IMG/VR virus record: IMGVR_UViG_3300010368_000011
Location: 1 to 64,000 of that record
DNA length: 64,000 nucleotides
DNA from: a virus
Taxonomy: Duplodnaviria > Heunggongvirae > Uroviricota > Caudoviricetes
Reading direction: 5' to 3' (one strand)
Shown in pieces: positions 8,867 through 54,499 of this stretch. The notes below the pieces were generated by a model. It searched no databases and was not told where the DNA came from. It saw only the letters and a program-made list of their open reading frames with translations. Made by a program: the position numbers and the translations under genes. Each line of letters opens with the position of its first letter. Position 1 is the first letter of the stretch.

Positions 8867-9367
8867 TCAAGTTGAATATTTTCCTTTGTTTCTTCCACAG
8901 TATGATAATGTTTGAGAATGACAATTAGGGCATAATATTTCAAGATTTTCAATACGGTGATCAGAATTATCACCATTCTTATGTTCAAGATGTAATGATA
9001 AAGAAGAACCGTTCCACTTATCACCTATACCACACTTATTACAAACTGGTTTTAATAAGTTCACATCATATAAGCGCTGTTTTAATCTGGATGAAGAACT
9101 GTAAGATGAATTCTCTACTAATATTTCATCTAAAGGTATTTTTGGTGTCCAATCGTGGTTACCACCTAATAGATACCCTTGACCACGAAAATGACTTATA
9201 TCTAATCCAAGTTCGTTTACTGCCCTGTCAAATACTTTATAATTCCCACCAGACGGAACCAAACCAAGCTGTATCAAAGCATTTCGTTTACTGATGGATG
9301 ATTCCACCGCTGAAATAAATTGTTCTTTATTATATCCACGTTTTTCAAATAATTTAGATAATTCCAT
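8867..9367 (-). CDS. HNH homing endonuclease
   Basis: C-terminal LEHKNGDNSDHRIENLEILCPNCHS motif; paralogue of 23063..23671; AAGAAGGTG RBS; immediately downstream of the intron-containing tRNA-Leu. Confidence 0.8.
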   Translation of the reverse strand: MELSKLFEKRGYNKEQFISAVESSISKRNALIQLGLVPSGGNYKVFDRAVNELGLDISHFRGQGYLLGGNHDWTPKIPLDEILVENSSYSSSSRLKQRLYDVNLLKPVCNKCGIGDKWNGSSLSLHLEHKNGDNSDHRIENLEILCPNCHSQTLSYCGRNKGKYST

Positions 9368-9478
9368 AGCACACCTTCTTTAAGTGTACTTATGGGTAAC
9401 CATATACTTATGCGTGCACCAAAATAATTGGTGCGGACGGCGGGAATTGAACCCGCACTCCCGAAGGAACCAGATTTT

Positions 9479-10339
9479 CATACCACTACAGCTTTAACTG
9501 CCCTCGACTGAGGTTTGTGGTCTGGACTATACCTTCATCATATCAGTTCTCACTGACTTAGATGCTGCCCGTACAGTAAGTTACATACATACCTTATATT
9601 GCATGCATGGAATAACAAATGGTTTGACAATATCAATAAATTTTCTCGCCTGTGTAGTACCACACCGGATCGAAAATCTTCCTTTGTTCCGCTTAATAGT
9701 GAATTTCACATCATGTACTTCTTTAAAATAATCAACAATGACGTTGACTTCTTTTTCCGTAGATACACAACACGAAATTACAAGTTCATATGCATGAACC
9801 TTACCATTTCGCTTCTTGGGATATAGCGATCCATCATCCATATACCATATGGCTATAGCATGATGCGTAAACTTATTCAGTAGTTTACGTGTAAATTGCT
9901 TATATCCATCCTTATAACACCATTTCCGCAGTACACGAAAATAACGATGGGTCATAAAGAATCTGTTAAAGGTATTTGTATCATTACGAGACTTAACCCG
10001 ACTGATTGAAACACTTTTATTAAACAGATCACAAAGAATGTTCAGCTTATGGTTTAGATACTCAACTTGGGCATCACAATGACTAATCGCCAATTCAGGT
10101 TTTGCTGGCCGAATATGACCATCACCCATCACCATAGCACAAACAACCGATTTGTCTTTCTTCTCCATTTCTAATTCCCTTCCTCACACTAGGTGAGATA
10201 TATTTTGTAACTTACTCAGTCTCTACACCTTCAACTTTCTTTCGAAAGAAGCTTGGCTCGGGATTGCCATTTAAAAGGTTTCCCCGAATTTGAGCAGTTC
10301 TACTCCGATGGTTTCCCAAAGGGCACTCAATTTTACTAT
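9479..10339 (-). mobile_element. group I intron (tRNA-Leu UAA anticodon-loop type) carrying a LAGLIDADG homing endonuclease ORF
   Basis: 5' splice after U, 3' terminal G; core strings AAUUGAG..CUCAAAUUCGGGGAAACC..GGCAAUCCCGAGCCAAGC..GGUGUAGAGACUG and 3' GGGCAGUUAAAGCUGUAGUGGUAUG closely resemble the Anabaena pre-tRNA-Leu intron. Confidence 0.75.
9581..10168 (-). CDS. LAGLIDADG homing endonuclease (intron-encoded)
   Basis: two LAGLIDADG-type motifs (VMGDGHI and WYMDDGSL); ORF entirely inside the intron, GGAAGGGAAT RBS. Confidence 0.8.
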   Translation of the reverse strand: MEKKDKSVVCAMVMGDGHIRPAKPELAISHCDAQVEYLNHKLNILCDLFNKSVSISRVKSRNDTNTFNRFFMTHRYFRVLRKWCYKDGYKQFTRKLLNKFTHHAIAIWYMDDGSLYPKKRNGKVHAYELVISCCVSTEKEVNVIVDYFKEVHDVKFTIKRNKGRFSIRCGTTQARKFIDIVKPFVIPCMQYKVCM

Positions 10340-10392
10340 AAGTCTGGCGCGTCTACCATTTCCACCACGTCCGCATACTCATACTTATAGAC

Positions 10393-10425
10393 GTGTGATT
10401 CATTCTGTCAATGATTTGAATCACA
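10393..10425 (-). other. 9-bp perfect hairpin (TGTGATTCA/TGAATCACA) directly upstream of tRNA-Leu
   Basis: inverted repeat with 13-nt loop. Confidence 0.4.
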
Positions 10426-10906
10426 TAATTATTGTCATAGAATCTAAGTAGGTCGGCTTGGTTCCTGTCCCTTAATGAGAAACCAACGTGGTCTTCATGC
10501 CACCCTCATGGAAACATGAACATGAAGTTGTAAGATAGGCGATTTGGATAGGTGACTAAAGGATCACTGAACCTCGGTCGGAACTAGTAAGAGATGGTCA
10601 TAGACTAGTTCAGAACTCAGAACTTTAATGAACGGCGAGTATTGTTACAGTTTATACTGTTTCAGTACACAAGGTCTTTGTGCCTATAATCACAAAGGGT
10701 CGGGACGGCTGGCATCCGAAACTGCATTCTGAGGGATATCTAATTTACGTGAAACTGACACCCGGTTGAGTCGCTAAGAGATTCTATTATTATTTCCAAT
10801 TTGTTTTGGTTATTCTAGTGGAGGCCGGGATTTAGCGAGGTATAGCTATGTCCAAATATAGGAATGACCACAGTATATGATCACTCCTATACCCAGATCA
10901 AATTGA

Positions 10907-11449
10907 CTAGCGGGTGAACTGACCGCGCAAACCCTCAACATCAATAAATTCATTACATCCACGACGCAGTGAATCTGCTACCGCTTCTTTCGATGAAACG
11001 ACTGTAACACGAACATTGCGATTACGGAGTTCGGTGAGTAGTGGGGAAAGTTCGCCATCACCGGAAAACAGAACGATATGATCCACAGCCTTGTTACAGA
11101 CCATGGACATGACGTGAACTGAGATATCGGTAGAGACGTTGGATCGCAGACGCTTGGTCATGCCATCTTCATTATCACGGGTCGGTACGAGTTTGGTTTT
11201 AATGCGATACCCATTGTACGACAATAGATCGGTCAATGGCTTCACCGCAGAGAAACCCGAATCTTCAGCGGCTACTGGTGTGAAATAATCCAATTGGACA
11301 TTTTCACAAAGCTCATCAACGTGGTCCCGAAGTTTGAGGAAATCCAGTTGAACATCTTTGTTTTTCAACGTGGCAAACATATTTGCGCCGTCGAATACTA
11401 CCAGTGTCTTCCGATCTTGTACCAAATCGAAAATGTTATCTTGTTTCAT
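10907..11449 (-). CDS. NYN/LabA-like (PIN-fold) ribonuclease domain protein
   Basis: VVFDGANMF and IVLFSGDGELSP motifs typical of NYN/DUF88; ATG with AAGGAA RBS. Confidence 0.7.
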   Translation of the reverse strand: MKQDNIFDLVQDRKTLVVFDGANMFATLKNKDVQLDFLKLRDHVDELCENVQLDYFTPVAAEDSGFSAVKPLTDLLSYNGYRIKTKLVPTRDNEDGMTKRLRSNVSTDISVHVMSMVCNKAVDHIVLFSGDGELSPLLTELRNRNVRVTVVSSKEAVADSLRRGCNEFIDVEGLRGQFTR

Positions 11450-11590: not shown

Positions 11591-12091
11591 ATGAAATTAG
11601 TGTTTTTAGATATTGACGGTGTTGTTAATACGGCCCGAAACTTATTGTTTCTTCCGAATGAACTTCATCATGGGTCTGGTGCGTTCTTGGAACATATCGA
11701 TCAAGTGTCAGCACACGCTATTCGGTTCCTGTGTGAATACACTGGATGCAAGATCGTGATCAACTCGACGCACGGTGCAAATGGTGAAGATTATATCCGC
11801 GATTTGTTCATGAAGGTTGGATATGATATTTCCGAAGACCTTTATATCCGATGGTGTTCTGGTTTTCCCAACGAGAATATGAATCGTGGGGATGCTATTA
11901 AGCAATTCATGAACACTATGAGAGAATCAGGCGAAGAAGTGACGCATTGGTGTGTTATCGATGATGCATCTTTGCCTGATCTACAAGAACATCATGTTAA
12001 ACCAGATAGTCAAAATGGAATCATGATGCAAGACTTTGAACAAGCTTGTAAAATCTTGGGAAAACCGTTTACCGGATTGATTATCATCTAA
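11591..12091 (+). CDS. HAD-superfamily phosphatase-like protein
   Basis: N-terminal LDIDGVVNTARN (DxDGV motif I). Confidence 0.5.
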   Translation: MKLVFLDIDGVVNTARNLLFLPNELHHGSGAFLEHIDQVSAHAIRFLCEYTGCKIVINSTHGANGEDYIRDLFMKVGYDISEDLYIRWCSGFPNENMNRGDAIKQFMNTMRESGEEVTHWCVIDDASLPDLQEHHVKPDSQNGIMMQDFEQACKILGKPFTGLIII

Positions 12092-22978: not shown

Positions 22979-23059
22979 GGACACGTTCCCGAGCGGTCAA
23001 AGGGAATTGGCTTTTAACCAATTGCGCAAGCTTCGTGGGTTCGAATCCCACCGTGTTCA
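22979..23059 (+). tRNA. class-II-shaped (Tyr-like scaffold) tRNA with apparent UUU anticodon
   Basis: acceptor GGACACG/CGTGTTC, D-arm TTCCCGAGCGGTCAAAGGGA as in bacterial tRNA-Tyr, perfect anticodon stem AATTGG/CCAATT with loop CUUUUAA, 12-nt variable region, canonical T-arm, A73-CCA. Confidence 0.5.
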
Positions 23060-23062
23060 CCA

Positions 23063-43679: not shown

Positions 43680-44700
43680 TACATATCCGCGAAGCCTGCT
43701 AAATATGTTCTCAACGAATGAGTGCTCTCGGTTTTACCGCCGCTGAGAAAAATAAAAAAAAGTGCAGTGACAGGGTTTACAGATCGAAAAAACCTGTTAT
43801 ATATACATCTTCATGACGCGGGGCCGCAAGCCGCCACGTTGTTACTAGAGGCCACGATGCTTCTAGATATATGTTATAATGAATGGGCGGTATAGCGTCC
43901 ATTAAGAATAAGTCGAGTAATCGACCCAAAGCAGGGGTTACATCTCTGCACCACCGTAAGGATGGCTCATCTATACAAGTCCAAGTCTGCCGGTAACGGT
44001 GTGTCTTCACAAAGGCACGAAGCAGTAAAAACAGGTTAATGAGATTCGAGGCCAACTGGTTAGAATCGTTCAAGGGTAGCTCCTTTGAGTAATTAACACA
44101 GCAACTGTTTGAATGTGAAGACTAATGGATAGTGATCTAGTATCTTCTTCGGGAGATATTATAGTCCGAACCTTAGCGGGACAGGGCGGGTCGCAATGTT
44201 AAAGGCATGGAGTTGGTGATGTAATAGTCATCAAATACGTGTTCTTGAAACATGGTTTAGTAGTCTTAGCGGGCGAAAAACAGGAGGCGTGTTGTATTTT
44301 GACTCTAACAAGGGTCGAAGCAACTGGATTAGCACGTCTTAGTAATTGCAAAGAAACCACTCCAAGGTAACAAAAAGCAAAGTCTAATCCATCGTTGTAT
44401 GAAAGGTGCTTAAAGCCTTACCCCTCGGGGAATAAGGTGCGCCGGAGGTCGCAAGCCGAAGGTGTTTGTTGGAGAAAGTTTCATAGCCATTTAGCGATGG
44501 TTAACTGTTGTAAAAGGCAGATGGGACAGAAACCAATGAGTAGTACAGCGTGATAGATGAAACGCCACATCTTAAAAAAGGCAGCACTGGTGGATACAGG
44601 AAGACCTTAACCGGCTCCTGTGGATGTGAAATTAACAAGCGGGTGCAACTGCTTGGTACGATTTGAAGGCCACTATTTTTGCCGCTAGTCTCACGGCGAA
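43680..44700. ncRNA. candidate large structured RNA (about 1 kb, ORF-free, GC-enriched, many GNRA/UUCG-type hairpins); strand undetermined
   Basis: no plausible ORF on either strand over ~1 kb in an otherwise gene-dense phage; local GC visibly higher than flanks; ends at repeated 34-nt hairpin 44703..44736. Confidence 0.4.
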
Positions 44701-50320: not shown

Positions 50321-52678
50321 ATGGCTACACTAAGTTCGCCTAACGTTCAAGTTAGCATCAATAACCAATCGCAATATTCGGAAACGTATCCAACTACGGT
50401 TCCGCTCATTGTTTTAGCATCACGGGCTGGTAAAACCAACCCTTCTGGAACAGGTATTGCGGCTGGAACGACTGAAAGTAATGTGGTCCGTTCGGTCACA
50501 TCGCAAAGAGAAGTGTTACAGCTTCTTGGAAATCCCACGTTTGTCACATCGGGTGGAAATCCCGTTCATGGACATGAATGTAATGAGTATGGTGTCTTTG
50601 CCCTCTGGAATTTGATGGCAACCTCATCGTTGGCTTATTATGTTCGTGCGGATATCGATCTAGATCAACTGCTCCCATCAACTACGGAACCAGTAAATCC
50701 ACCCGTGGATGGAACTTATTGGATTGATAGTGATGCAGTAGTCGGTGGTTTCTATCGTCGAAATGCTGCTAACTCTGCGTGGGAAGCTCTTACGTCAGCA
50801 GTATACACAACCACACCGGGTTCTGGTGACGGAGTTGAAGGTAATATTGCTCTCGATTATTCGACTGCTAACGGAACCGTCAAAGTTAAAACAACTGCAA
50901 CAGTTTGGGCTGATATCGGTGCAACTGATCTATCTTCAACTGCAATCGACTCTCGTACTGGTACGACTGCTGATATTTGGTTGTCCGAAACAGCTCCATT
51001 AGGTGCTGGTGCGAATGATTACTGGTGGAAAACAAATGCTGCATCTGGTGGTTATAACCTGAAGCTTTCGAAATATCGTGCAAGCGATGCTACATGGGTT
51101 GAAGTTATTCCTACTCGTTCAACAATTGAACCAACCGATAAAAGCACAACTTCAATTTGGGAAGACCTGTCTTCTCTAACTGATGATGGTTATCATCCGT
51201 TGAAGGTTGGTAACGGTAGTGCCTTTGTTGCACTAACAACTGTTATCCAAGCAGCTGCACCAACAACTGCGGCGACTGATGGTGATTATTGGTACTCTGA
51301 TGACATCACGGATTTCGGATTGTACAAAGAAGTATCTGATGAGTGGATTCCTATCACTACTGTAGGAACAGAAACCCCAACAGCAGTTCAAAAGGTTATT
51401 AGTGCTTCTGCACCGACAACTCCATCAACTGGTGCATTCTGGGTTGATGTTTCTGGTGATAATCTTGATAATTTCCCAGTAATCAAGCGTTATTCTGGCG
51501 CTGTATGGGAAGACATCACGTCTTCGGTTGATATGTCGGGTTCTTATACAGCACCAACATTGGTTGCTAATGGATCGTTGTGGTTAAACCTTGATGATGT
51601 AAGCACCAAGTGTACGGTCAAAGTCTATGACTCAACCTATCTTCCGGTAACTATTGCTTCCGGTGTTAAAGATACATGGGTTTCGGCTGATGGTCACTGG
51701 AAACCAATTGCAGGTTCACGCTTCTTGCGTAAGGCTCAACGTTATATGGTTTCTTCGAAGCTTCAGGCTGCATTAGCTAATGTTGATGAACTGAAATCAG
51801 AAGCTATCTTGTATCAGCTTATGGCTGCACCGGGATATCCTGAACTATATGACGAGATGGTGAATGTTTCAACTGCGATCAATGAGCGTGCTCATGTTAT
51901 TGCTGATGTTCCATTCAATATGATCCCGTCTGGTGTCGCTGCTGGCAAAGAAGTTACTGTAGCAGATTGGAAATCAAATACTGTTGGTGCTTCTGCAACT
52001 GGTGAAGAAGGTTTTGCTTCCTCGTCTAATGCAATCGCTTCGATGTATTATCCACATGCCTTGATGTCAAATGTCGATGGGGTCGATATCCTTGCACCTG
52101 CTTCTGCATATGTCATTCCGATGCTTGTTAGAACAGATAATAATTCTGGTCCATGGCAAGCGGCTATCGGTTATTCAAACGGTGTTATCAATAAGGTTTC
52201 ATCTGTTGGATACTTGACTGATGCCGGTGCTTACAAATTATTGAACATCACTGATGGTCATGCTGATATTCTATATAATAACCAAGTCAATATGGTTAAG
52301 AATATCTATCGTGTTGGTCTTCGTAATATGGGTAACAAAACAGTTTACGGTGGTTCTGAATTGACCAATCGTGTTAACGTTTCTCGCCTTGTTTCGAAAA
52401 TCCGTTACGAAATCCGTCAACTACTGATGCCTTATCTCGGTCAACCCAATCTGTCCGGTACATGGTCATCTGTTCGTAATACGGCCAATCGTTACCTAGC
52501 GGGTCTTTCTGCTGCAAATGCCTTAGAAGATTATGGTGTTCGCTGTGATGAAGAGATAAATACCGCAGAAAGAAGAGCAAGAAATGAACTATGGGTTGAG
52601 GTCGCTATTATTCCGGTAACAGCAACTGAATTCGTTTATGTTGAACTTCGTATTGATGAACCGGGTACAACTATTTAA
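50321..52678 (+). CDS. tail sheath protein (785 aa) with inserted YW-repeat domains
   Basis: C-terminal region (…YNNQVNMVKNIYRVGLRNMGNKTVYGGSELTNRVNVSRLV…RNELWVEVAIIPVTATEFVYVELRI) matches conserved sheath C-terminal domain; strong terminator follows. Confidence 0.75.
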   Translation: MATLSSPNVQVSINNQSQYSETYPTTVPLIVLASRAGKTNPSGTGIAAGTTESNVVRSVTSQREVLQLLGNPTFVTSGGNPVHGHECNEYGVFALWNLMATSSLAYYVRADIDLDQLLPSTTEPVNPPVDGTYWIDSDAVVGGFYRRNAANSAWEALTSAVYTTTPGSGDGVEGNIALDYSTANGTVKVKTTATVWADIGATDLSSTAIDSRTGTTADIWLSETAPLGAGANDYWWKTNAASGGYNLKLSKYRASDATWVEVIPTRSTIEPTDKSTTSIWEDLSSLTDDGYHPLKVGNGSAFVALTTVIQAAAPTTAATDGDYWYSDDITDFGLYKEVSDEWIPITTVGTETPTAVQKVISASAPTTPSTGAFWVDVSGDNLDNFPVIKRYSGAVWEDITSSVDMSGSYTAPTLVANGSLWLNLDDVSTKCTVKVYDSTYLPVTIASGVKDTWVSADGHWKPIAGSRFLRKAQRYMVSSKLQAALANVDELKSEAILYQLMAAPGYPELYDEMVNVSTAINERAHVIADVPFNMIPSGVAAGKEVTVADWKSNTVGASATGEEGFASSSNAIASMYYPHALMSNVDGVDILAPASAYVIPMLVRTDNNSGPWQAAIGYSNGVINKVSSVGYLTDAGAYKLLNITDGHADILYNNQVNMVKNIYRVGLRNMGNKTVYGGSELTNRVNVSRLVSKIRYEIRQLLMPYLGQPNLSGTWSSVRNTANRYLAGLSAANALEDYGVRCDEEINTAERRARNELWVEVAIIPVTATEFVYVELRIDEPGTTI

Positions 52679-52756: not shown

Positions 52757-54499
52757 ATGAACGAACTTAAAGAAAAAATCGAAAAAACCTTTAAGGTCAA
52801 TGGTCGTATCGTTTCTCGACGCCTGAATGATACATATATACAGACCAATAATCTTGAAGATTTGGTTAATACAATACACTCGACAACTTCATTTGTAAGT
52901 GAATGTACATTAGGCACACGTGTCAATATTATACTTAATGATATCAAACAAATTCCCGCCTGCAAGTTATCGGGTTGTGACAACTGTGTTCCTATAGCAG
53001 AAGCGGGTAACAATCTATTTCAAACATATTGTAGTAAAGAATGTTCTATGAAGAGTGCTTCTGAAGCTGCTCGTCTTGCCCTTAAAACTAAATATGGGGT
53101 TGATAATCCAATATATATTCCCGGTGTTAGGGAAAAAATCATGGAAACGAATAAAGCCAACAACGGTGGGGTGCATTTGTTTCAAACGGACGAGTATAAG
53201 AAACATATAAAAGCCCATTATCAACACGTCTACGGGGTGGATTTTCATACACAGGCCGAACAAATCAAAGATAAAATAAAGGTAACTGTTAGACAAAGCT
53301 ATGGTGTGGATAATCCATCACAGTCAGAAGCGGTAAAGGCATTAAAAATACAAACATCTATTGGTAATTACGGAATACCGAATCCGTCCTCCGATGAAGG
53401 TGTTAAAGCAAAACGCCAAGAAACCATGTTGTCCCGGTACAGTGTCCCATATTATTCACAATCGGATGATTACAAAAAACGTAATATAAAACCCGGAACC
53501 TATCTAGGATGGCATGATAAAGAGGACGAGATTAGACAACTGATAGATGAAGGTATTACTGGTGAACAGCTTAGTGCATACTTGGGTTTCGCTAATACCA
53601 GTAATTTATACAATACTGTTCTGAAGGAATTCAACATAAGTCCAGAAATGCTAAACCGAAACACAACAGGTCGATCTGTTCTGGAAGACAAAATAACTAC
53701 CATGATTTCCGAAATGTATGATGGTGAAATTATTCAATCATATAAATTACCTAATAACAAAGAGATAGATATATTTCTTCCCGCGTTACAAATAGGTATT
53801 GAAATAAATGGTTCCTATTGGCATTCCCATTTATTCGCTCCTAAGTCACAACATTTAGATAAAACGGAATATTGCGAGAGCATTGGTATTCAACTTATAC
53901 AGATATATGAACATGAAATTAATAATAAATCATCAAAGGTGATTCAATTAATAACTGGTTTGGTTAATGATAGAAAAACTATAGGTGCCAGACAAACAAC
54001 TTTTATGCGAATTGATAACTCAATGGCTGCAACCTTCTTTGATACCTATCATTTCGACGGGAAGCGTGGCGCATCGGAATGTTATGGGTTATTTCATAAC
54101 GATGAGTTGGTTATGTGTGCATCGTTTACAAAACATAAACAAGGAATGGAACTTATTAGATTAGCATCTAGTATAAGAGTGGTTGGTGGATTGTCCAAAA
54201 TATTAAAAAGAACTGGTTATACTAGTGTAGTATCATTTGCTAATCGATCTAGAACAAATAGAAATAATAATATATACTTAAAGTCCGGGTTTGTAGAAAC
54301 AAGAACTACTGCGCCTAATTATGTCTATATCTATGGAAAATATGTTAAATCTAGATACCAAGCCATGAAACATAAGTTGCCTGAATTGTTGGGTGATATG
54401 TTTGATAGTATGAAAAGCGAGAAACAGAATATGCTAGATAACAAATGGTTACAAGTATATGATTCTGGACAGATTTTCTATTCATGGAATAATGCTTGA
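52757..54499 (+). CDS. homing-endonuclease-like protein (580 aa): Zn-ribbon, tandem YGVDNP repeats, C-terminal Vsr/PD-(D/E)XK-like nuclease motif
   Basis: repeats KYGVDNP / SYGVDNP / NYGIPNP / RYSVPYY; C-terminal DIFLPALQIGIEINGSYWHS resembles Vsr/DUF559-type nucleases; inserted between sheath and downstream genes. Confidence 0.5.
   Translation: MNELKEKIEKTFKVNGRIVSRRLNDTYIQTNNLEDLVNTIHSTTSFVSECTLGTRVNIILNDIKQIPACKLSGCDNCVPIAEAGNNLFQTYCSKECSMKSASEAARLALKTKYGVDNPIYIPGVREKIMETNKANNGGVHLFQTDEYKKHIKAHYQHVYGVDFHTQAEQIKDKIKVTVRQSYGVDNPSQSEAVKALKIQTSIGNYGIPNPSSDEGVKAKRQETMLSRYSVPYYSQSDDYKKRNIKPGTYLGWHDKEDEIRQLIDEGITGEQLSAYLGFANTSNLYNTVLKEFNISPEMLNRNTTGRSVLEDKITTMISEMYDGEIIQSYKLPNNKEIDIFLPALQIGIEINGSYWHSHLFAPKSQHLDKTEYCESIGIQLIQIYEHEINNKSSKVIQLITGLVNDRKTIGARQTTFMRIDNSMAATFFDTYHFDGKRGASECYGLFHNDELVMCASFTKHKQGMELIRLASSIRVVGGLSKILKRTGYTSVVSFANRSRTNRNNNIYLKSGFVETRTTAPNYVYIYGKYVKSRYQAMKHKLPELLGDMFDSMKSEKQNMLDNKWLQVYDSGQIFYSWNNA

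What the first reader, a model, noticed from the sequence alone, without database searches (positions are those of the whole stretch)
9429..10374. tRNA-Leu(UAA) gene interrupted by a cyanobacterial-type group I intron that carries a LAGLIDADG endonuclease, inside a phage
The exons reconstitute a class II tRNA with anticodon loop CUU|AAAA, so the insertion lies between U34 and A35, the same site as the ancient cyanobacterial/plastid tRNA-Leu intron. Intron core strings match the Anabaena intron closely. The intron additionally carries a 195-aa double-motif LAGLIDADG ORF, and a free-standing HNH gene lies immediately downstream. tRNA-Leu introns with an inserted HEG are rare and in phages essentially unreported; this may be an active mobile intron.
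Basis: partly seen in the sequence, partly recalled or inferred. Interest (0 to 1): 0.7.

Follow-up and report, generated by a model that had tools for sequence, protein, structure and literature searches.

The report
Mobile self-splicing intron in phage tRNA-Leu
A large tailed phage carries a leucine tRNA gene split in its anticodon loop by a self-splicing group I intron that also encodes an intact homing endonuclease; every part is a known type, but the literature I searched does not describe this combination or such introns in phage tRNA genes.

Summary
On the minus strand, 10374..9429 is a class II tRNA-Leu(UAA) gene. An 861-nt intron (10339..9479) splits it exactly between U34 and A35.

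The intron is a real group I (IC3, tRNA-type) ribozyme:
- It aligns collinearly with 36 other tRNA-Leu(UAA) introns. My P1-P9 model is 91% paired there, against 32-45% in slid controls, with compensatory changes in P2, P3, P4, P6, P8 and P9.
- Rfam hits its 5' half (33 bits, below the cut-off of 50).
- A covariance model built without the window hits its 3' half (83 bits, E 2.5e-17).
- ORF-less relatives pass Rfam's cut-off.

The 195-aa ORF is an intact I-SceI-like double-motif LAGLIDADG enzyme. It sits in a stem-closed insertion between P7 and P3' (J7/3), not in a peripheral loop. Its nearest relatives occupy the same position in other tRNA-Leu(UAA) introns.

The intron resembles ORF-less viral tRNA-Leu introns (about 80% identity) more than cyanobacterial ones (59-63%). 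Such introns are common in viral metagenome contigs and occur unannotated in Agrobacterium phage Atu_ph07.

Splicing and homing are inferred, not shown. There is no sign of recent mobility. Verdict: a new member of a known kind, of moderate interest.

The parts
10340..10374 (-). tRNA-Leu(UAA) 5' exon (35 nt): acceptor arm, D arm, 5' strand of the anticodon stem, then C32 U33 U34
   Evidence: ARAGORN with intron detection. The last bases CUU pair with the intron guide sequence to form P1.
9479..10339 (-). Group I intron, 861 nt, IC3 tRNA type, inserted between U34 and A35
   Evidence: It is collinear with 36 other tRNA-Leu(UAA) introns, and its helices are supported by covariation.
9429..9478 (-). 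tRNA-Leu(UAA) 3' exon (50 nt): A35 A36 A37 A38, 3' strand of the anticodon stem, long variable arm, T arm, A73, encoded CCA
   Evidence: ARAGORN and the sequence itself.
10217..10339 (-). Ribozyme 5' half. P1 guide GAG 10328..10326; P2 10322..10305 with a GAAA loop; P3 5' strand 10297..10292; P4 10288..10282 with 10263..10257; P5 10278..10267; P6 10251..10232; P7 5' strand GACU 10221..10218.
   Evidence: Rfam Intron_gpI partial match at 10291..10214, 33 bits, E 4.2e-6. Pair counts on alignment A2.
9575..10216 (-). 642-nt insertion in J7/3 that carries the endonuclease gene. It is closed by a 10-bp stem, AGUAAGUUAC (10216..10207) with GUAACUUACU (9584..9575). The ORF's stop codon lies inside the 3' strand of the stem.
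   Evidence: The stem keeps pairing through compensatory changes in L328 (AGUAAAUCA/UGAUUUACU) and L246 (ACUAAAUC/GAUUUAGU). All relatives examined have the ORF at the same position.
10177..10197 (-). Small hairpin CUCACCUAGUGUGAG (10197..10183) that overlaps a purine-rich ribosome-binding site, GAGGAAGGG (10185..10177), which ends 8 nt before the ATG
   Evidence: Seen directly in the sequence. It is conserved in L328 and L246 with G-U and U-G wobble changes. A regulatory role is inferred.
9581..10168 (-). LAGLIDADG homing endonuclease gene, 195 aa, monomeric double-motif type, I-SceI-like
   Evidence: Pfam PF03161, E 2.3e-26. PHROG 11023. PDB I-SceI, E 2.7e-7 for the single sequence and 6e-16 for the profile. 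Both motifs keep their acidic residues (G15 D16 G17; D111 D112 G113).
9479..9574 (-). Ribozyme 3' half. P3 3' strand GGGCAG 9570..9565; P8 9564..9536 with a UCUAAG/UAUGA receptor-like motif; P7 3' strand AGUC 9528..9525; P9 9521..9517 with 9486..9482; P9a 9513..9502; P9b 9501..9488 with a UAAA loop; terminal G at 9479.
   Evidence: Custom covariance model R1, built without the window, matches 9580..9474 at 83 bits, E 2.5e-17. This is the only match in the 64 kb, and no pair in it is non-canonical. Pair counts.
8867..9367 (-). Free-standing HNH endonuclease gene, 166 aa, 61 nt downstream of the tRNA on the same strand
   Evidence: PHROG 10822, E 5.4e-44. Pfam HNH 18.7 bits, below the 21.4 cut-off. 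The motif HLEHKNGDNSDHRIENLEILCPNCH is visible. Whether it is functionally linked to the intron is unknown.

Best explanation
This is a phage tRNA-Leu(UAA) gene interrupted in its anticodon loop, between U34 and A35, by a self-splicing group I intron of the tRNA type (IC3). The intron has acquired, or kept, an I-SceI-like LAGLIDADG homing endonuclease gene.

Proposed mechanism:
- The gene is transcribed as a 946-nt precursor.
- The intron folds into the P1-P9 core. P1 forms between exon bases C32-U33-U34 and the guide sequence GAG, with a U-G wobble at the splice site.
- A free guanosine attacks after U34. The released 3'-OH then attacks after the terminal G (9479).
- This joins the exons into a chargeable 85-nt class II tRNA-Leu that reads UUA and UUG, which make up 41% of Leu codons in this phage's large ORFs.
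- The endonuclease is translated from its own ribosome-binding site inside a stem-closed insertion between P7 and P3'.
- During mixed infection it would cut intron-less tRNA-Leu(UAA) genes across the anticodon-arm sequence. Repair from the intron-bearing copy would then copy the intron in (homing).

Shown here: the gene structure, the fold supported by covariation, the intact endonuclease domain, the conserved position of the insertion, and the existence of a matching uninterrupted target elsewhere. Inferred: splicing activity, endonuclease activity and specificity, and present-day mobility.
For: - Exon and intron boundaries, and a canonical spliced tRNA.
- My P1-P9 model on 37 homologous introns is 91.4% paired, against 32-45% when partners are slid. 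The covariation score is 0.494 against at most 0.119, and 0 of 500 shuffles reach any observed measure. The long-range P3 is 100% paired, with compensatory changes in 4 of its 6 pairs. P1 and P7 are invariant.
- In the window itself, 61 of the 66 modelled pairs are standard.
- Rfam Intron_gpI matches the 5' half at E 4e-6. ORF-less relatives exceed the cut-off of 50 bits: 86, 80, 63 and 63 bits.
- An independent covariance model matches the 3' half at 83 bits, E 2.5e-17.
- The endonuclease matches Pfam at 93 bits and I-SceI over its full length. The catalytic acidic residues are invariant or nearly so across 29 homologues.
- Three of the four closest homologues examined (52-55% identity) lie in tRNA-Leu(UAA) introns (L246, L247, L328). 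In every relative checked, the ORF sits in a stem-closed insertion directly after the P7 5' strand.
- An uninterrupted tRNA-Leu(UAA) gene that is identical over 37 nt around the insertion site exists in another tRNA array, L330.
Against: - No experiment shows splicing or cleavage.
- The window alone does not reach Rfam's gathering score, because the ORF insertion splits the core.
- P2 has two central mismatches and P6 has a U-U/U-U internal loop.
- The L9 tetraloop is UAAA, where 34 of 37 relatives have GAAA. This may weaken a tertiary contact.
- The nearest endonuclease relative is only 55% identical, and no near-identical copy occurs in another gene, so nothing indicates recent movement.
- No intron-less allele of this same phage was found.
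Confidence: 0.85

Rival explanations
1. The intron splices, but the LAGLIDADG protein no longer acts as a homing endonuclease. It would instead be a maturase that helps the ribozyme fold, or a resident that has lost all cuttable targets. The element would then be fixed and inherited vertically in this phage lineage.
For: - The L9 loop is UAAA rather than the near-universal GAAA, and P2 is imperfect, so protein help with folding is plausible.
- Some LAGLIDADG proteins act as maturases, as stated for Thermotoga in PMC3984707.
- There is no sign of recent spread, since the closest homologue is 55% identical.
Against: - Both motif acidic residues needed for cleavage are kept here and across 29 homologues.
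- The protein aligns over its full length with the active endonuclease I-SceI.
- ORF-less relatives with the same core reach Rfam's cut-off and evidently manage without a protein.
Confidence: 0.12
2. The split gene is a decaying remnant. The ribozyme no longer splices, the tRNA is a pseudogene, and the ORF is on its way to being lost.
For: The window's own Rfam score is below the cut-off. There are a few mismatches in P2, P5 and P6, and the L9 loop is unusual.
Against: - 61 of 66 modelled pairs are standard.
- All invariant core positions of the family are kept (P1, P7, J6/7, J8/7, terminal G).
- The 3' half scores 83 bits with no non-canonical pair.
- The exons give a flawless tRNA.
- The ORF is full length with intact motifs.
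Confidence: 0.03

Closest known systems
[quoted passage not shown] Represented here by L184 (Nostocaceae), L191 (Nodularia), L147, L148 and L201.
   Same: It has the same host gene and the same insertion site (34/35). The P1-P9 architecture is the same and collinear, with shared core strings: UUGAG guide region, CUCAAAYUCRGGGAAACC, AAUCCYGAGCCAAGC, GAAGGUGYAGAGACU and AGUCCA.
   Different: - Only 59-63% identical.
- The cyanobacterial introns have no ORF.
- The sequences of P9 and part of P3 differ.
- They are chromosomal or plastid, not phage-borne.
- The window intron clusters with viral sequences, not with cyanobacteria.
ORF-less tRNA-Leu(UAA) introns in phage genomes and viral contigs: Agrobacterium phage Atu_ph07 (L001), huge phage LR756501 (L002), and IMG/VR contigs L040, L107, L098, L091 and others.
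   Same: They share the site and the IC3 core, at 70-80% identity, and they sit in phage tRNA arrays. They form one cluster with the window in a quick tree.
   Different: They are 196-278 nt long and have no endonuclease gene. J7/3 is just 'AG' where the window has its 642-nt insertion. In the deposited records they are not annotated as tRNA or as intron.
LAGLIDADG-bearing tRNA-Leu(UAA) introns on short metagenome contigs (L328, L246, L247) and on viral contig L250.
   Same: They carry the same endonuclease family (40-55% identity). The ORF is placed in the same stem-closed J7/3 insertion, preceded in L328 and L246 by the same small hairpin and purine-rich ribosome-binding site.
   Different: The tRNA exons differ outside the anticodon loop. 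In L247 the intron appears to sit one base upstream, at 33/34. The genome context is unknown because the contigs are only 2.6-5.9 kb.
Endonuclease-bearing tRNA introns of bacteria reported in mSystems 2026 (PMC13011429): LAGLIDADG in cyanobacterial tRNA-Arg(CCU) (L229 here), HNH in Bacteroidota tRNA-Leu(UAA), and PD-(D/E)XK (the I-Ssp6803I type) in tRNA-fMet.
   Same: These are the same kind of composite element. L229 also has its LAGLIDADG ORF directly after the P7 5' strand.
   Different: The pairing of host gene and endonuclease family is different. That survey reports no LAGLIDADG in a tRNA-Leu(UAA) intron and did not survey phages. The L229 enzyme is only 34% identical over 120 residues.
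Classical phage group I introns (T4 td, nrdB and nrdD; the capsid-gene intron of Pelagibacter phage HTVC120P seen here) and the free-standing SegB endonuclease of the T4 tRNA cluster.
   Same: These are phage-borne self-splicing introns with homing endonucleases, and homing endonucleases that act on tRNA gene regions.
   Different: These introns interrupt protein-coding genes. A 2014 review states that all phage introns known at that time did so. T4 introns are subgroup IA and carry GIY-YIG or HNH enzymes (my own knowledge).
Lak megaphage tRNA introns (Devoto et al., bioRxiv 10.1101/356790).
   Same: These are introns in phage tRNA genes, noted there as previously unreported.
   Different: They were described as 'enigmatic' and not classified. 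They lie in other tRNAs (Phe, Gly, Thr, Tyr), and no endonuclease was reported.

Membership tests
Group I intron (Rfam RF00028; IC3 tRNA type) | P1 helix that pairs the end of the 5' exon with an internal guide sequence, with a U-G wobble at the splice site | tested here: met
   Exon C-U-U pairs with G-A-G (10328..10326), so U34 pairs with G. All three pairs are invariant in 37 sequences.
Group I intron (Rfam RF00028; IC3 tRNA type) | Terminal guanosine at the 3' end of the intron | tested here: met
   The intron ends ...GGUAUG, with the final G at 9479, followed by AAAAU. This G is invariant in alignment A2.
Group I intron (Rfam RF00028; IC3 tRNA type) | Conserved core P3-P9 including the P3/P7 pseudoknot, supported by covariation | tested here: met
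   91.4% of cells are paired against 32-45% in slid controls. 45 of 66 pairs show a change on both sides. P3 is 100% paired. P7 is invariant, so it says nothing either way about covariation.
Group I intron (Rfam RF00028; IC3 tRNA type) | Covariance-model score at or above Rfam's gathering cut-off (50 bits) | tested here: inconclusive
   The window scores 33 bits, E 4.2e-6, for the 5' half only, because the 642-nt insertion splits the core. ORF-less homologues score 63-86 bits. A custom model of the 3' half scores 83 bits, E 2.5e-17.
Group I intron (Rfam RF00028; IC3 tRNA type) | Guanosine-dependent self-splicing | not testable with these tools
   This needs in vitro transcription with GTP and Mg2+, or RT-PCR from infected cells.
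Bacterial/plastid tRNA-Leu(UAA) intron lineage | Insertion between anticodon positions 34 and 35 of tRNA-Leu(UAA) | tested here: met
Bacterial/plastid tRNA-Leu(UAA) intron lineage | Collinear sequence homology with cyanobacterial tRNA-Leu introns | tested here: met
   Alignment A2. Identity is 59-63% to L184 and L191.
Bacterial/plastid tRNA-Leu(UAA) intron lineage | Membership of the cyanobacterial clade in particular, which is the 'cyanobacterial-type' claim | tested here: not met
   The closest relatives are viral (77-80%) and non-cyanobacterial bacterial introns. Cyanobacteria are the most distant sequences in the identity ranking and in the neighbour-joining tree, which has no support values.
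LAGLIDADG homing endonuclease (Pfam PF03161, monomeric I-SceI-like) | Domain match above the curated cut-off | tested here: met
   93.2 bits against a cut-off of 25, covering profile positions 2-168 of 168.
LAGLIDADG homing endonuclease (Pfam PF03161, monomeric I-SceI-like) | Two LAGLIDADG motifs, each with its catalytic acidic residue | tested here: met
   VCAMVMGDGH (D16) and AIAIWYMDDGS (D111, D112). G15, D111 and G113 are invariant, and D16, G17 and D112 are conserved in at least 90% of 29 homologues.
LAGLIDADG homing endonuclease (Pfam PF03161, monomeric I-SceI-like) | Site-specific cleavage of the intron-less allele, followed by homing | not testable with these tools
   Only indirect evidence is available. 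A 37-nt identical uninterrupted site exists in L330, and the nearest homologues sit in the same gene.
Class II tRNA-Leu | Cloverleaf with a long variable arm, discriminator A73 and anticodon UAA after exon joining | tested here: met
   ARAGORN structure. A73 and the encoded CCA can be read from the sequence.
HNH endonuclease (the downstream gene) | HNH motif and family match | tested here: met
   PHROG 10822, E 5.4e-44. The H-N-H/CxxC string is visible. Pfam HNH is below its cut-off, 18.7 against 21.4 bits.

The most novel reading that the evidence does not exclude
Phages may hold a long-resident lineage of tRNA-Leu(UAA) group I introns. Some of these carry homing endonucleases specific for the tRNA-Leu anticodon arm. 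Phages could then be both the reservoir and the vehicle that spreads the supposedly 'ancient, immobile' tRNA-Leu intron sideways among bacteria. That would explain its patchy presence in Acidobacteriota, Proteobacteria, Planctomycetota and others, as seen.
Probability: 0.2. Interest if true: 0.7.

Novelty: new member of a known kind. Interest (0 to 1): 0.45.

Why it matters
The tRNA-Leu(UAA) intron is the textbook example of an ancient intron inherited vertically. It usually lacks an endonuclease, and that absence has been used to argue that it rarely moves. A 2026 survey of bacterial tRNA introns draws this conclusion from how few of them carry endonuclease genes.

This locus shows three things. 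The same intron lineage lives in phage tRNA arrays. It can carry an intact endonuclease. And that endonuclease subfamily is tied to this site. Together these offer a concrete, testable route for lateral spread.

It also corrects the view in a 2014 review that phage introns occur only in protein-coding genes.

There is a practical consequence too. Standard tRNA finders miss these genes, in this window and in Atu_ph07, so phage tRNA inventories are undercounted.

Tried and rejected
- Default ARAGORN and Rfam at gathering threshold do not see the gene or the intron. Intron-aware ARAGORN and a permissive Rfam scan were needed.
- My first reading put the ORF in the P8 loop. I rejected it because the P3 3' strand (GGGCAG) lies after the ORF, so the insertion is in J7/3.
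- No close relative of the window was found. Megablast of 25 kb against 50,697 phage records gave nothing, and the neighbouring NYN protein has no relative in IMG/VR.
- The search for an intron-less allele gave only unrelated contigs. L124 shares just the anticodon stem. L330 shares 37 nt but has different acceptor and T arms. Neither is an empty site of this phage.
I built a model of the 3' half instead.
- Among the 80 best viral-contig relatives of the endonuclease, only 2 lie in a tRNA intron that ARAGORN can detect: L248 in tRNA-Asn and L250 in tRNA-Leu. The wider protein family is therefore not tRNA-specific. Only the closest subclade is.
- The Pelagibacter phage HTVC120P match turned out to be an intron in the capsid gene, not in a tRNA.
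- A literature lead to a LAGLIDADG ORF in a Chlorella organelle intron concerned mitochondrial cox1, not trnL.
- The rival ideas of an assembly chimera or a bacterial contaminant were rejected. An independent assembly is identical, and phage structural genes share the contig.
Full report
**What is there.** The default tRNA and Rfam scans list 15 tRNAs and a GOLLD RNA in the window, and nothing at 9429..10374. ARAGORN run with intron detection on the minus strand finds one gene, tRNA-Leu(UAA) at 10374..9429, with an 861-nt intron inserted as gactt-intron-aaaat.

The coordinates are 5' exon 10374..10340, intron 10339..9479 and 3' exon 9478..9429. The joined exons fold into an 85-nt class II tRNA. 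It has anticodon stem CCAGA/UCUGG, loop CUUAAAA, a long variable arm, discriminator A73 and an encoded CCA. The 5' exon ends in U and the intron ends in G, as group I chemistry requires.

**Is the intron a group I ribozyme?** At gathering threshold Rfam reports nothing here. A permissive scan gives a partial Intron_gpI match covering P3-P7 at 10291..10214 (33 bits, E 4.2e-6, cut-off 50). The score is low because a 642-nt insertion splits the core. I therefore tested the fold in three independent ways.

- *Homologues.* A 15-nt core pattern (GAAGGTGYAGAGACT) finds more than 120 viral contigs and more than 120 bacterial genomes. Intron-aware ARAGORN places most of these inside tRNA anticodon loops, with tRNA-Leu(UAA) at 34/35 the commonest site.
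- *Covariation.* I aligned 37 such tRNA-Leu introns, with the ORF insertion removed from the three that have one. The window aligns collinearly with all of them, including Nostocaceae and Nodularia. I wrote a P1-P9 model on the window row and counted it across the alignment. 91.4% of cells are paired, against 32-45% when partners are slid. The covariation score is 0.494, against at most 0.119. No shuffle out of 500 reaches the observed values. The long-range P3 is 100% paired, with compensatory changes in 4 of 6 pairs. P2, P4, P6, P8, P9, P9a and P9b also covary. P1 and P7 are invariant. In the window itself 61 of 66 pairs are standard.
- *Covariance models.* Rfam scores ORF-less relatives above its cut-off: L191 86, L184 80, L244 63 and viral L040 63 bits. 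Endonuclease-bearing relatives fall just below it: L328 45.7 and L246 41.7 bits. A model of the 3' half (P3' to the 3' splice site), built only from other sequences, matches the window at 9580..9474. It scores 83 bits, E 2.5e-17, over the full model with no non-canonical pair, and it is the only match in the 64 kb.

**Anatomy.**
- P1: exon C-U-U with GAG at 10328..10326, giving a U-G wobble at the splice site.
- P2: 10322..10305, with a GAAA loop.
- P3: 10297..10292 with 9570..9565.
- P4: 10288..10282 with 10263..10257.
- P5: 10278..10267.
- P6: 10251..10232.
- P7: 10221..10218 with 9528..9525.
- P8: 9564..9536, with a UCUAAG/UAUGA motif. It resembles the tetraloop receptor known from the Azoarcus tRNA-Ile intron; that comparison rests on my own knowledge and was not tested here.
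- P9, P9a, P9b: 9521..9482.
- Terminal G: 9479.

There are some imperfections. P2 has two central mismatches, and P6 has a U-U/U-U internal loop. L9 is UAAA where 34 of 37 relatives have GAAA.

**The endonuclease and where it sits.** The ORF at 10168..9581 (195 aa) matches Pfam LAGLIDADG_2 at 93 bits over the whole profile and PHROG 11023. It aligns over its full length with the solved structure of I-SceI (E 2.7e-7; profile of 29 homologues, 6e-16). Both motifs, VCAMVMGDGH and AIAIWYMDDGS, keep their acidic residues, which are invariant or nearly so in the family.

The ORF is not in a peripheral loop such as P8. The P3 3' strand lies after it. The gene therefore sits in an insertion between the P7 5' strand and P3' (J7/3), where ORF-less relatives have just 'AG'. 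The insertion (10216..9575) is closed by a 10-bp stem, AGUAAGUUAC/GUAACUUACU, and the stop codon lies inside its 3' strand. The stem keeps pairing through compensatory changes in L328 and L246.

Upstream of the ATG is a small conserved hairpin (10197..10183). It overlaps a GAGGAAGGG ribosome-binding site. This could control translation, but that is an inference.

**Relatives of the endonuclease.** The exact protein occurs on contigs up to 317 kb. An independent Logan assembly is 100% identical over 4482 nt. The next relatives are only 52-55% identical.

I looked up four of them. Three lie in tRNA-Leu(UAA) introns:
- P0002 / L246, an 850-nt intron.
- P0004 / L328, an 865-nt intron.
- P0009 / L247, which by the terminal-G rule is inserted at 33/34.

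The fourth, L329, lies in a group I intron whose host gene I did not identify.

Among the 80 best viral-contig relatives (27-46% identity), only L248 (tRNA-Asn) and L250 (tRNA-Leu) are in detectable tRNA introns. In every case examined, the ORF follows the P7 5' strand directly, inside a stem-closed insertion. This includes L229, a cyanobacterial tRNA-Arg(CCU) intron. The partnership between this endonuclease family and the IC3 tRNA intron is therefore old, and the closest subclade is tied to the tRNA-Leu site.

**Relation to cyanobacterial introns, and occurrence in phages.** Over aligned positions the window core is 80%, 79% and 78% identical to ORF-less viral introns L107, L040 and L098. 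It is 74-75% identical to the endonuclease-bearing L328 and L246, and 66-77% identical to most non-cyanobacterial bacterial introns. It is only 59-63% identical to Nostocaceae and Nodularia.

A quick identity-based neighbour-joining tree puts all but one of the viral sequences (L116 is the exception), Atu_ph07, LR756501 and the three endonuclease-bearing introns in one cluster. Bacteria form a second cluster, and cyanobacteria lie far outside. The tree has no support values, and base composition may bias it. 'Cyanobacterial-type' is therefore right about homology and insertion site, but wrong about the nearest affinity.

The same split gene is present and unannotated in three deposited phage genomes:
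- Agrobacterium phage Atu_ph07, with a 278-nt intron overlapped by a 'hypothetical protein' CDS.
- Huge phage LR756501, with a 205-nt intron.
- Huge phage LR756511, with a 700-nt intron that carries a different ORF.

The window itself is a tailed phage. It encodes tail sheath, tail tube, a virion protein and endolysin.

**Evidence on mobility.** An uninterrupted tRNA-Leu(UAA) gene that is identical to the window's exons over 37 nt around the insertion site exists in another tRNA array, L330. Its acceptor and T arms differ, so it is a potential target rather than an empty allele of this phage. No close relative of the phage was found, and no near-identical copy of the intron was found elsewhere. 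Homing is therefore plausible but not demonstrated.

tRNA-Leu(UAA) would be useful to the phage. TTA and TTG together make up 41% of Leu codons in its large ORFs.

**Literature.**
- A 2014 review states that all phage introns known then lie in protein-coding genes, despite the many phage tRNA genes (PMC3984707).
- The Lak megaphage preprint reports 'enigmatic', unclassified introns in other phage tRNAs as a first (10.1101/356790).
- The huge-phage paper never mentions introns.
- A 2026 survey of complete bacterial genomes found 333 tRNA group I introns, of which 12 carry endonuclease genes. These include HNH in Bacteroidota tRNA-Leu(UAA) and LAGLIDADG in cyanobacterial tRNA-Arg(CCU). It did not survey phages, and it reports no LAGLIDADG in a tRNA-Leu intron (PMC13011429).
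- My other searches found no description of this combination.

The library is incomplete, so an earlier report in a subscription journal cannot be excluded.

**Verdict.** Every component and the proposed mechanism are of known kinds, so this is a new member of a known kind rather than a new system. Three things are not documented in the literature searched:
- group I introns in phage tRNA-Leu genes;
- a LAGLIDADG enzyme in a tRNA-Leu(UAA) intron;
- the conserved J7/3 placement of that enzyme's gene.

Interest is moderate. The locus offers a testable route for lateral spread of a classic 'ancient' intron, and it shows that phage tRNA inventories are undercounted.

Noticed in passing
window 44284..44697 (+): A full-length GOLLD RNA (Rfam RF02032, 168.6 bits against a cut-off of 150, E 1.4e-45) lies in this phage, in the same 64 kb that holds 15 further tRNA genes.
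   Followed up: no
window 10375..10906: A 532-nt stretch without a convincing ORF lies between the NYN gene and the tRNA-Leu gene. On the minus strand it folds better than shuffled controls (z = -2.89; none of 100 shuffles does as well). It has no Rfam match at E up to 10 and no match in 50,697 phage records. It could be a long leader or an undescribed structured RNA.
   Followed up: partly
window 10907..11449 (-) and 11591..12091 (+): Just upstream of the split tRNA lie a NYN-domain (RNase-like) gene (Pfam E 1e-20) and a HAD_SAK_2 gene, the 'Swiss Army Knife RNA repair' HAD domain (E 3.4e-16). This suggests a neighbourhood devoted to RNA processing or repair.
   Followed up: no
window 52757..54499 (+): A 580-aa homing-endonuclease-like ORF (PHROG 3339, E 1.8e-101; also PHROG 559, HNH) lies directly after the tail sheath gene at 50321..52678. 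It is a second selfish-endonuclease locus in the window.
   Followed up: no
L001 1496..1857 (MF403008.1, about 112,890-113,251): Agrobacterium phage Atu_ph07, a cultured jumbo phage, has an unannotated tRNA-Leu(UAA) gene with a 278-nt ORF-less group I intron at 34/35. The record places a 'hypothetical protein' CDS (AUZ94936.1) over its 3' part.
   Followed up: partly
L002 1503..1793 and L003 826..1612 (LR756501, LR756511): Two published huge-phage genomes (735 kb and 595 kb) also carry intron-split tRNA-Leu(UAA) genes. The 700-nt intron in LR756511 contains a 189-aa ORF that begins after P2 and is not obviously LAGLIDADG.
   Followed up: partly
L070 7357..8093 (IMGVR_UViG_3300015214_000028): This viral contig has a tRNA-Leu(UAA) intron of 652 nt with a 158-aa ORF that starts in P6. 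That is a different ORF in a different position from the LAGLIDADG case.
   Followed up: no
L021, L055, L103, L122, L248 and others (IMG/VR loci): Viral contigs also carry group I introns with the same core in the anticodon loops of tRNA-Arg(CCU), tRNA-Met(CAU), tRNA-Lys(CUU) and tRNA-Asn(GUU). L248 (tRNA-Asn) has a related LAGLIDADG ORF (46% identity) in the same J7/3 position.
   Followed up: partly
L247 72..1040; also L123 and L203: In some tRNA-Leu(UAA) genes the intron seems to sit between U33 and U34 rather than between U34 and A35: the exons read ...GGACU | UAAAAUCC with the intron ending in G. The insertion site is shifted by one base within the same loop.
   Followed up: no
L331 981..2155 (Pelagibacter phage HTVC120P, MH598807.1): The capsid gene is annotated as two CDSs (gp29 and gp30). 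They are separated by a stretch that matches the P4-P7 core of the window intron at 79%, so this is probably an unannotated group I intron in a capsid gene.
   Followed up: partly
window 22979..23062 (+): The tRNA-Lys(UUU) called here is 84 nt long, which is unusual for a class I tRNA.
   Followed up: no
L125-L244 (GTDB genomes): tRNA-Leu(UAA) introns at 34/35 are present in many non-cyanobacterial genomes, including Acidobacteriota, Alphaproteobacteria, Burkholderia/Paraburkholderia, Planctomycetota and Opitutus. In this sample of 120 hits, the same core also occurs in tRNA-Gln(CUG), tRNA-Met(CAU), tRNA-Arg(CCU), tRNA-Asn and tRNA-Thr.
   Followed up: partly
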